A stretch of DNA of 1,453 nucleotides from Escherichia coli (GTDB lineage Bacteria > Pseudomonadota > Gammaproteobacteria > Enterobacterales > Enterobacteriaceae), in assembly GCF_003334255.1 (NCBI RefSeq), contig NZ_QOWU01000158.1; one strand, written 5' to 3'. The translations under genes were made by a program, and so were the position numbers. Position 1 is the stretch's first letter. Each line of letters begins with the position of its first letter. The notes under the pieces were generated by a model. The model was not told the DNA's origin, did not search any database, and worked only from the letters and a program-made list of their open reading frames with translations. Below are positions 87-256 of the stretch, piece by piece.

Positions 87-102
87 CCTGAAACAGTCAG
101 AC
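87..102. repeat. Arm of 16-bp imperfect inverted repeat (pairs with 241..256)
   Basis: Reverse complement of 87..102 (GTCTGACTGTTTCAGG) matches 241..256 (GTCTGACTGCTTCAGG) at 15 of 16 positions. Confidence 0.7.
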
Positions 103-240
103 TGTATCTTGGATTTTACAAACTCTTATTCGGGGATTTTAGCCCCATGACGATTTACGCAGTGAGCTGGCCTCTTTCTATATGCAGGTATTGGCGCATT
201 CTGACCTCCTGAATTCTTTTACGAGGATCACTCATTCCGT

Positions 241-256
241 GTCTGACTGCTTCAGG
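241..256. repeat. Arm of 16-bp imperfect inverted repeat (pairs with 87..102)
   Basis: See partner arm. The single mismatch is G-U compatible only in the minus-strand transcript. Confidence 0.7.

What the first reader, a model, noticed from the sequence alone, without database searches (positions are those of the whole stretch)
87..256. 16-bp long-range inverted repeat with strand-specific G-U compensation
A 15/16 inverted repeat separated by 138 bp is unlikely by chance in 1.45 kb (rough estimate well below 0.1 expected). The one mismatch is tolerated as G250-U93 only if the minus strand is transcribed, i.e. in the same sense as the transposase. This is the strongest purely sequence-level evidence for a functional RNA fold here.
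Basis: seen in the sequence. Interest (0 to 1): 0.65.

Follow-up and report, generated by a model that had tools for sequence, protein, structure and literature searches.

The report
Closing stem of ISEc45 bridge RNA
The 16-bp inverted repeat is real and is the closing helix of the guide ("bridge" or "seek") RNA that the insertion sequence ISEc45 encodes just after its transposase gene, so it is a genuine RNA structure of an already known kind.

Summary
Arms 87-102 and 241-256 match 15/16, and only 3 of 300 shuffles give such a repeat. The one mismatch is A·C on the + strand and G·U on the minus, transposase-sense strand.

The window is a full copy of ISEc45, an IS110-family element with a DEDD transposase on the minus strand and subterminal inverted repeats. 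The repeat brackets 170 nt that start 3 nt after the transposase stop codon.

A stem in the same place, spanning 165-190 nt, occurs in about 35 relatives with 47-87% transposase identity, from Vibrio to Rhizobium and Planctomycetes. The arm sequences are unrelated between lineages. All 16 pairs show double compensatory changes, and the G·U position alternates between G·U, G-C and A-U.

Inside the stem sit a target-binding internal loop and donor-end guides. These guides covary with the flanking target and with the element's own right end.

The stem is therefore the basal helix of an IS1111-type bridge RNA (seekRNA). Durrant et al. 2024 already list ISEc45 as predicted to carry a bridge RNA in its right end. 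Novelty is low: a new, anatomically resolved member of a known kind. No RNA expression or function was tested here.

The parts
241..256 (-). P1 5' arm (RNA CCUGAAGCAGUCAGAC). It starts 3 nt after the transposase stop codon.
   Evidence: covariation
87..102 (-). P1 3' arm (RNA GUCUGACUGUUUCAGG)
   Evidence: covariation
87..256 (-). Bridge RNA / long-seekRNA-like core domain of 170 nt, closed by P1. The covariance-model hit covers 77-266 on the minus strand.
   Evidence: (144.9 bits, E 4e-37, minus strand)
230..234 (-). P3 5' strand (UGAGU), outer stem of the target-binding arm
   Evidence: (helix 2, 98% paired, 3/3 pairs with double changes)
163..167 (-). P3 3' strand (GCUCA)
223..226 (-). P4 5' strand (CCUC), the invariant stem that closes the target-binding internal loop
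   Evidence: (helix 3, 100% paired but no double change, so uninformative)
171..174 (-). P4 3' strand (GAGG)
212..218 (-). Right-target guide (RTG, 'T match'), AAGAAUU. It pairs with the top strand of core AG plus right-target TTTTT through two wobble pairs.
   Evidence: Covariation in relatives: AAGAAUU with AG-TTCTT, AAAAAUU with AG-TTTTT (L007), GAAAACU with AG-TTTTC (L029).
185..211 (-). P5 variable hairpin of the target-binding arm (CAGG...CCUG)
   Evidence: (helix 4, 89% paired, 3/4 pairs with double changes)
178..184 (-). Left-target guide (LTG, 'B match'), CAUAUAG. It has the same sense as left-target ...CATAA/CATGT plus core AG, so it pairs with the bottom strand.
   Evidence: Covariation: GCAGCCAGA with ..AGCC-AG (at least 10 elements), GCAGGUAGA with ..AGGT-AG (L023), GCAUAUAGA with ..ATAA/ATGT-AG (ISEc45).
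150..154 (-). Candidate right-donor guide (RDG), AUCGU. It could pair with the top strand of the left end ATGG(T)/ATGA(T). Tentative.
   Evidence: Only partial covariation (ACC with GGT, AUC with GAT). Unresolved.
132..146 (-). P6 hairpin (GGGGC UAAAAU CCCC) between the two donor guides
   Evidence: helix 5, 98% paired, 3/5 pairs with double changes
123..129 (-). Left-donor guide (LDG), AUAAGAG. It is identical in sense to the right-end terminus ATAAG plus core AG (window 12-6).
   Evidence: direct repeat D14, 3-12 = 120-129; AUAAGAG, AUAUCAG and AUAACAG in the RNA each recur exactly at that element's right-end terminus
259..1392 (-). Transposase gene (377 aa, DEDD_Tnp_IS110 plus Transposase_20)
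10..19 (.). Right subterminal inverted repeat (TATGACCTTT on the + strand)
   Evidence: I8; conserved in relatives
1438..1447 (.). Left subterminal inverted repeat
   Evidence: (I8)
6..7 (-). Core dinucleotide AG at the right junction (CT on the IS66-sense strand). The second copy is at 1452-1453.
   Evidence: An AG core is also reported for ISPpu9 and other family members (PMC12288879).
1..5 (.). Target-derived bases (IS66-family tnpC), not part of the element
   Evidence: The intact ISEc43 tnpC (L049) reads ..GGAAAG-AAAAATT-ACGTG... These bases vary with the host IS66 member.
19..24 (-). TTGACA in the right end. In the excised circle it would lie 17 nt from TATGAC (window 1447-1442), giving a candidate junction promoter (inferred).
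   Evidence: Sequence. No sigma-70-like promoter in the linear element. Junction promoters are shown for ISEc11/ISEc21 (PMC11187229).

Best explanation
The inverted repeat is helix P1, the basal closing stem of the bridge RNA (seekRNA) of ISEc45. The RNA is transcribed in the transposase sense from the non-coding region 3' of the transposase gene.

P1 closes a multiloop with three parts, in 5' to 3' order:
- a target-binding arm: stems P3/P4, an internal loop with the right-target guide AAGAAUU on its 5' side and the left-target guide CAUAUAG on its 3' side, and hairpin P5;
- a short hairpin, P6;
- single strands flanking P6 that match the element's own ends: a candidate right-donor guide 5' of P6, and the left-donor guide AUAAGAG 3' of P6.

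By analogy with IS621 and ISEc11, the DEDD transposase would bind this RNA. The target loop would pair with both strands of the insertion site, a conserved codon motif in IS66-family tnpC with core AG. The multiloop strands would pair with the joined ends of the excised circle. Recombination would occur at the AG core.

P1 corresponds to the stem of the donor-binding loop. It holds both guide modules in one folded domain.

Shown here: the stem, its covariation and strand bias, the guide-to-DNA matches and their covariation. Inferred: that the RNA is made, binds the transposase and is required.
For: Identity of the element:
- The window is 100% identical to ISEc45 copies in E. coli.
- The transposase carries PF01548 and PF02371, and the ends carry subterminal inverted repeats (I8).
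- Durrant et al. 2024, supplementary table, lists ISEc45 as IS1111 group with a bridge RNA predicted in the right end.

P1:
- A repeat this good occurs in 3 of 300 shuffles.
- A stem at the same place is found in relatives with unrelated arm sequences.
- Cognate arm duplexes average -33.2 kcal/mol; non-cognate arm pairs average -13.3 +/- 5.1.
- On a plain MAFFT alignment with a fixed register, all 16 pairs have double changes and 72.8% of cells are paired, against 36-53% when the partners are slid. Covariation score is 0.53 against 0.24 in shuffles, reached by 0 of 500.
- On the covariance-model alignment, 22/22 pairs have double changes and 82% of cells are paired.
- Four hits that were not in the seed alignment (L024, L035, L038, L039) also form P1.

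Strand:
- All 39 covariance-model hits lie in the transposase sense.
- G·U pairs number 41 in the sense strand and 11 in the antisense. The sense duplex is more stable in 18 of 24 elements (Wilcoxon p = 0.003).

Guides:
- The target was defined from an intact IS66 copy.
- The left- and right-target guides covary with the flanks.
- The three variants of the left-donor guide each recur at their own right-end terminus.

Architecture: the top-strand match lies 5' of the bottom-strand match, as reported for IS1111-type seekRNAs (PMC11187229). ISEc11's own non-coding region shows the same module: stem, CAGUAUUUU, hairpin, GUGAAAAUA. Durrant et al. note donor-binding nucleotides in a multiloop in many IS1111 orthologues.
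Against: - No expression, processing or protein-binding data exist for ISEc45.
- Rfam 15 has no matching family.
- The right-donor guide is only tentatively placed.
- The ISEc45 transposase is distant from every experimentally studied one. It shares 36% identity over 128 aa with TnpEc11 and matches IS621 and ISCro4 only at E about 1e-9.
- In ISEc11, an 82-nt short seekRNA carrying only the target module supported transposition better than the 154-nt long form (42% versus 15%). A closing stem like P1 may therefore not be strictly required for activity.
- ISEc11 itself shows no comparably strong long-range stem.
- The relatives are not phylogenetically independent, so the p-values are only indicative.
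Confidence: 0.85

Rival explanations
1. P1 is a real RNA helix, but only a stability, processing or folding clamp of the transposase mRNA 3' UTR. It plays no direct part in recombination. The active species would be a shorter RNA (the P3-P5 arm) that lacks P1.
For: In ISEc11 the predominant transposase-bound RNA is the 82-nt short form, and it works better than the 154-nt long form. The authors suggest the short form derives from the long one.
Against: The left-donor guide lies outside the P3-P5 arm but inside P1, and it covaries with the right-end terminus in three variants. This argues that the multiloop closed by P1 has a guide function. P1 is 14-25 bp long in every lineage examined.
Confidence: 0.1
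2. The two arms act as double-stranded DNA: binding sites for the transposase or a host protein, or a cruciform or single-stranded-DNA hairpin.
For: Inverted repeats in insertion-sequence ends are often protein sites. G·T wobble pairs can also form in single-stranded DNA, so the strand bias alone does not exclude a DNA hairpin of that strand.
Against: Arm sequences are unrelated between elements whose transposases are 47-87% identical, while pairing is preserved. The real conserved DNA repeats are the subterminal ones. Arms 138 nt apart make a cruciform implausible. The family is known to use an RNA that co-purifies with the transposase.
Confidence: 0.03
3. Chance similarity with no function.
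For: A single 15/16 repeat in 1.45 kb has an expectation of about 0.01-0.02, which is not astronomically small.
Against: The helix is conserved with compensatory changes across about 35 relatives.
Confidence: 0.01

Closest known systems
seekRNA of ISEc11 and other IS1111-type elements (Siddiquee et al. 2024, PMC11187229)
   Same: The non-coding region lies downstream of the transposase gene and in the same sense. The element has subterminal inverted repeats and makes no target duplication. The target module is a stem, then a top-strand match, then a hairpin, then a bottom-strand match, with the top-strand match on the 5' side. An element in that study (ISEc21) also targets a conserved codon motif in another insertion-sequence family's transposase gene.
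   Different: The transposases are only distantly related: 36% identity over the C-terminal 128 aa, and 377 versus 339 aa. In ISEc45 the target module is nested in a multiloop closed by a 16-bp stem that starts 3 nt after the stop codon. No equally strong long-range stem is seen in the ISEc11 non-coding region. ISEc45 has no experimental data.
IS621 bridge RNA (Durrant et al. 2024, PMC11208160; Hiraizumi et al. 2024, PMC11208158)
   Same: There are two guide modules. In each, one guide pairs with the bottom strand of the left half-site and the other with the top strand of the right half-site, around a 2-nt core. P1 is the counterpart of the donor-binding-loop stem. The core is CT when read on the IS66-sense strand (AG in the transposase sense).
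   Different: The IS621 RNA lies upstream of the transposase gene in the left end. Its two loops are in tandem rather than nested, and the guide order is left then right. In ISEc45 the order is right then left, and the core reads AG in the transposase sense. Protein similarity is weak (E 7e-10 over about 95 aa).
Predicted bridge RNAs of IS1111-group elements such as ISPa11 (Durrant et al. 2024, Fig. 6 and Extended Data Fig. 10)
   Same: The RNA is predicted in the right end, and the donor-binding nucleotides sit in a multiloop rather than a simple internal loop. ISEc45 itself is listed in their table as right end / IS1111.
   Different: That paper gives no structure, guide assignment or target for ISEc45. 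The figures are not available to me, so a detailed structural comparison was not possible.

Membership tests
IS110/IS1111-family bridge RNA (seekRNA) | Encoded in a non-coding end of an element whose transposase has a DEDD RuvC-like domain plus the IS110 Tnp domain | tested here: met
   PF01548 (3.6e-15) and PF02371 (6.9e-23); annotated as an ISEc45 transposase
IS110/IS1111-family bridge RNA (seekRNA) | Conserved secondary structure supported by covariation, on the transposase-sense strand | tested here: met
IS110/IS1111-family bridge RNA (seekRNA) | An internal loop with two guides that pair with opposite strands of the left and right halves of the target around a core dinucleotide | tested here: met
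   Target taken from the intact IS66 site. Right-target guide at 212-218 and left-target guide at 178-184. Guide-to-target covariation in relatives. In silico only.
IS110/IS1111-family bridge RNA (seekRNA) | Guides that match the element's own joined ends (donor recognition) | tested here: inconclusive
   The left-donor guide is clearly met: three covarying variants. The right-donor guide is only tentative.
IS110/IS1111-family bridge RNA (seekRNA) | The RNA is expressed, co-purifies with the transposase and is required for circle formation and insertion | not testable with these tools
   Needs wet-lab work. Shown for ISEc11, ISPa11, ISKpn4, ISPst6, ISEc21 and IS621 only.
IS1111 group (as opposed to the IS110 group) | Subterminal inverted repeats of about 7-17 bp and the long non-coding region downstream of the transposase gene | tested here: met
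   A 10-bp repeat at 10-19 / 1438-1447. The non-coding region 1-258 is 3' of the transposase gene. The same holds in relatives.
IS1111 group (as opposed to the IS110 group) | Transposase of 330-350 aa, related along its full length to the IS1111 transposase (criterion of Siddiquee et al.) | tested here: not met
   The protein is 377 aa. Only the C-terminal 128 aa align with TnpEc11, at 36% identity. In their identity matrix ISEc45 is about 15-25% identical to all other elements. It is best regarded as a separate deep clade with IS1111-like organisation.
Rfam families | A match to any curated covariance model | tested here: not met
   No match at E <= 1 on either strand
Intrinsic terminator | A compact G+C-rich hairpin followed by a U tract | tested here: not met
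   The arms are 138 nt apart. The scan finds no terminator in 1-300.

The most novel reading that the evidence does not exclude
The ISEc45 clade may use a nested, single-domain bridge RNA. In it the target-binding arm is inserted into the donor-binding multiloop, and one long stem (P1) closes both. This differs from the tandem two-loop IS621 RNA and from the short seekRNA of ISEc11. The whole clade, from Enterobacteria and Vibrio to Rhizobiales and Planctomycetes, would also be a dedicated parasite of one conserved codon motif (G-R/K-K-N-W/Y/F) in IS66-family transposase genes.
Probability: 0.55. Interest if true: 0.45.

Novelty: new member of a known kind. Interest (0 to 1): 0.3.

Why it matters
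The result shows that a purely sequence-level clue, a long-range inverted repeat with a strand-specific G·U pair, correctly flagged a functional guide RNA.

It also gives a first base-level map of the ISEc45 bridge RNA: closing stem, target loop, donor guides, AG core and true element ends. ISEc45 is common, present in about 650 of 5,426 complete E. coli genomes by its non-coding region, and also on Klebsiella plasmids.

The map makes testable predictions for reprogramming. It suggests a compact nested architecture that could interest those engineering bridge recombinases.

It does not reveal a new kind of system.

Tried and rejected
- Rfam search of the window, both strands, E <= 1: nothing.
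- A blind search for matches of 6 nt or more between the non-coding RNA and the target or donor gave dozens of chance hits and was uninformative on its own. Guides could only be assigned after aligning relatives and tabulating their flanks.
- I first read the motif AUAAGAGUUU (window 129-120 = 12-3) as spanning the right end plus the target flank. Comparison with relatives shows that only AUAAGAG (right end plus core) covaries.
- Matches between the P1 arms and distal target bases (CAGUCUG with CAGACTG) are absent from other natural targets, so I dismissed them as chance.
- L003 and L004 looked like relatives with a different non-coding region. They are ISEc45 copies truncated at or just before the 5' arm by other DNA, so they are uninformative.
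- L001 and L047 carry uncompensated changes in P1, but both have frameshifted transposase genes and are decaying copies.
- A terminator role and an internal promoter were both checked. No sigma-70-like promoter was found in the linear element and no terminator in 1-300.
- I looked for a P1-like stem in ISEc11, the experimentally studied element. Only weak candidates were found.
- The right-donor guide could not be placed with confidence.

Full report
**1. Observation.** The window contains an inverted repeat with arms 87-102 and 241-256, 16 nt, 15/16 complementary, 138 nt apart (I2). The mismatch is A93/C250 on the + strand and therefore U93·G250 on the minus strand. A repeat this good occurs anywhere in only 3 of 300 dinucleotide-preserving shuffles of the window. 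The minus-strand RNA of 1-270 folds with the stem at -74.3 kcal/mol (z = -2.9). The + strand gives z = -1.6.

**2. Context.** The window is a complete copy of ISEc45.
- It is 100% identical over 1,453 bp to many E. coli chromosomal and plasmid copies annotated "IS110-like element ISEc45 family transposase", all of them inserted in IS66-family transposase genes.
- The minus strand carries a 377-aa ORF (1392..259) with Pfam DEDD_Tnp_IS110 and Transposase_20.
- A 10-bp subterminal inverted repeat (10-19 / 1438-1447) lies near both ends (I8).
- The 258-nt non-coding region is downstream of the transposase gene.

This is the IS1111-type organisation, for which a guide RNA was described in 2024. That RNA is called the bridge RNA (Durrant et al., PMC11208160) or the seekRNA (Siddiquee et al., PMC11187229). 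Durrant's supplementary table lists ISEc45 as "RE / IS1111", meaning a bridge RNA is predicted in the right end. No paper in the library treats ISEc45 specifically. Rfam 15 has no matching family.

**3. True ends and target.** Joining the flanks of an ISEc45 copy and searching plasmids recovered intact ISEc43 tnpC, which is 7 bp longer than the joined flanks.
- In the IS66 sense the intact site reads ..CTCGGAAAG-AAAAATT-ACGTGTTCTTCGG...
- Window bases 1-7 (AAAAACT) are therefore target plus core, not part of the element. They vary with the host IS66 member.
- In the transposase orientation the target is ..GAAGAACA(TAA/CGT/GGT/TGT)-A(G/A)-TTTTTCTTTCCGAG.
- The joined element ends read ..TTGACAAAGGTCATAAG-AG-ATGG(A)TATGACCTTT.
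- The crossover is at an AG core, which reads CT on the IS66-sense strand. This fits the AG reported at the ends of ISPpu9 and other family members.

**4. The stem in relatives.** A protein-profile scan of one genome per species returned 37 loci with 30-100% transposase identity.
- An unbiased search for the best stem downstream of each stop codon found a long-range helix of 10-25 bp, spanning 165-190 nt, in nearly all of them. The arm sequences are unrelated between lineages. Examples:
  - Vibrio: UUGUCUGAAAGUGAA / UUCACUUUCAGGCAA
  - Rhizobium: GGUCAGGGCGUCGGGAG / UUCCCGGCGCUCUGACC
  - Limnoglobus: 25 bp
- The 138-nt interior aligns across all lineages with strongly conserved motifs, so the arms can be anchored without fitting them to each other.
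- Cognate arm pairs give -33.2 kcal/mol on average. Arms taken from different lineages give -13.3 +/- 5.1. No non-cognate pair reaches the cognate median.
- On the plain MAFFT alignment, in a fixed register, the 16 pairs homologous to the ISEc45 stem all show double changes. 72.8% of cells are paired, against 36-53% when partners are slid by 1-3 columns. The covariation score is 0.53 against 0.24 in shuffles, reached by 0 of 500.
- A covariance model built from this alignment hits 39 loci, always in the transposase sense. The window hit is 77-266 on the minus strand, 144.9 bits.
- On the model-based alignment, P1 has 22/22 pairs with double changes and 82% of cells paired. Four hits not in the seed (Cupriavidus L035, Ensifer L024, Photorhabdus L038, Rhizobium L039) also form the stem.
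- The closest informative relative is Enterobacter asburiae L002, about 70% DNA identity.
- Uncompensated changes were seen only in two copies whose transposase genes are frameshifted (L001, L047).

**5. Strand.** Across 24 distinct elements there are 41 G·U pairs in the transposase-sense helix and 11 in the antisense helix. The sense helix is more stable in 18 of 24 (Wilcoxon p = 0.003; the elements are not phylogenetically independent). The column of G250·U93 reads G·U 13, G-C 12, A-U 7.

**6. What lies inside the stem.** RNAalifold and the pair counts support four inner helices:
- P3: 234-230 / 167-163
- P4: 226-223 / 174-171
- P5: 211-208 / 188-185
- P6: 146-143 / 135-132

The P4-P5 internal loop carries AAGAAUU (218-212) on its 5' side and CAUAUAG (184-178) on its 3' side.

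In IS621, one guide has the sense of the left half-site and pairs with the bottom strand. The other guide is complementary to the top strand of the right half-site. Under that rule:
- CAUAUAG matches left-target CATAA/CATGT plus core AG.
- AAGAAUU pairs with core AG plus TTTTT, using wobble pairs.

Relatives confirm both assignments by covariation:
- RNA GCAGCCAGA goes with flank ..AGCC-AG in at least ten elements.
- GCAGGUAGA goes with ..AGGT-AG (L023).
- AAGAAUU goes with AG-TTCTT.
- AAAAAUU goes with AG-TTTTT (L007).
- GAAAACU goes with AG-TTTTC (L029).

The top-strand match lies 5' of the bottom-strand match, as reported for IS1111-type seekRNAs. The non-coding region of ISEc11 shows the same module: stem, CAGUAUUUU, hairpin, GUGAAAAUA.

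Three-prime of P6, the RNA carries AUAAGAG (129-123). This is identical to the right-end terminus ATAAG plus core AG (window 12-6), which explains direct repeat D14. In relatives the motif is AUAAGAG, AUAUCAG or AUAACAG, and in each case the same heptamer recurs at that element's own right-end terminus. This is the left-donor guide.

A right-donor guide probably lies 5' of P6 (AUCGU, 154-150). Its covariation is only partial, so I leave it tentative.

The picture is a donor-binding multiloop (P1, right-donor guide, P6, left-donor guide, P1) with the target-binding arm inserted on its 5' side. This matches Durrant's remark that many IS1111 orthologues have donor-binding nucleotides in a multiloop.

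**7. Mechanism.** Inferred by homology, the DEDD transposase binds this RNA. [quoted passage not shown] Strand exchange occurs at AG. P1 is the donor-loop stem and the clamp of the whole domain.

The linear element has no sigma-70-like promoter. Joining the ends would place TTGACA (24-19) 17 nt from TATGAC (1447-1442). This resembles the junction promoters shown for ISEc11 and ISEc21, but it is inferred only.

One caveat applies. In ISEc11 an 82-nt RNA with only the target module worked better than the 154-nt form. P1 may therefore not be strictly essential, and ISEc11 shows no comparably strong long-range stem.

**8. Comparison and novelty.** The system works like the IS621 bridge RNA and the ISEc11 seekRNA. 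It meets the testable family criteria, apart from an unresolved right-donor guide and the untestable biochemical ones.

The transposase is a deep outlier: 377 aa, only 36% identity to TnpEc11 over 128 aa, and weak matches to IS621 and ISCro4. By the strict criterion of Siddiquee et al. it is not an IS1111-family protein, although ISfinder and Durrant file it there.

I rate the finding a new, anatomically resolved member of a known kind. Interest is 0.3. The finding is real and functional in all likelihood, but it would not surprise a specialist after 2024.

**9. Side result.** In nearly all relatives, both flanks encode fragments of IS66-family TnpC that break at residues about 472-476 of ISEc43 TnpC, the G-K-K-N-Y motif. 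This whole clade of elements appears to be specialised on one conserved site in another insertion-sequence family, across several phyla.

Noticed in passing
window 1-7: The first 7 bases (AAAAACT) belong to the interrupted IS66-family tnpC: 5 target bases plus one copy of the AG/CT core. The 1,453-bp unit as delivered, which matches database copies, overshoots the true right end. The element proper is 1,446 bp (window 8-1453 or 6-1451).
   Followed up: yes
L005-L038 flanks; window flanks in L041-L047: Nearly all relatives, from Vibrio, Nitrosomonas, Trabulsiella, Photorhabdus, Rhizobium, Sphingomonadales, Cupriavidus/Ralstonia and Planctomycetes, are inserted at the same conserved codon motif (G-R/K-K-N-W/Y/F, residues about 472-476) of IS66-family TnpC genes, antisense to tnpC. 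The whole clade looks like a dedicated parasite of IS66 elements.
   Followed up: partly
window 3-12 and 120-129: A perfect 10-bp direct repeat, AAACTCTTAT (D14). It is explained as the left-donor guide of the RNA matching the right-end terminus plus core. The last 3 bases (target side) match by coincidence or a handshake-like extension, and do not covary in relatives.
   Followed up: yes
window 367-383 versus 241-257: A segment inside the 3' end of the transposase ORF (RNA GUCUGACAGCAAAAGGG) resembles the P1 3' arm. It could pair 13/17 with the P1 5' arm (I5). This is a possible alternative pairing in the full-length mRNA that would compete with P1, or it may be chance.
   Followed up: no
L003 (E. 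coli plasmid pPK8276-107kb) and L004 (contig labelled Collinsella MAG): These are ISEc45 copies whose sequence diverges abruptly within or just before the P1 5' arm, after AAACCCTGAA and after AAACC respectively. In L004 the downstream DNA looks like an IS3-family orfB. A 100% identical E. coli insertion sequence on a Collinsella MAG contig may be a binning or assembly artefact.
   Followed up: partly
protein hits P0011-P0030: Many E. coli database proteins are 99% identical to the first ~76% of the ISEc45 transposase and then carry an IS3-type HTH_21 domain (PF13276). This points to a recurrent fusion or interruption of ISEc45 by, or within, an IS3-family element, for example in strain 55989.
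   Followed up: no
window 25-86 (minus strand): The 60-nt stretch between the P1 3' arm and the right subterminal repeat contains a small palindrome (GAAGCUCCCGGAGCUGC, about 66-50) followed by GGUCUUUUUGG. The region is variable in relatives. Its role (RNA 3' end, terminator, or right-end recognition) is unknown. The terminator scan did not flag it.
   Followed up: no
E. coli collection: 1,467 genomes match part of the element, mostly at 90-95% identity and under 80% coverage, but only about 650 match the non-coding region. Many genomes therefore hold truncated or divergent relatives that lack this RNA region.
   Followed up: no
window 1448 (left end, ATGG versus ATGA): ISEc45 copies are polymorphic at the fourth base after the core in the left end: G in the window, A in L043, L044 and L046. 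The candidate right-donor guide AUCGU would pair with either through a U·G or a U-A pair.
   Followed up: partly
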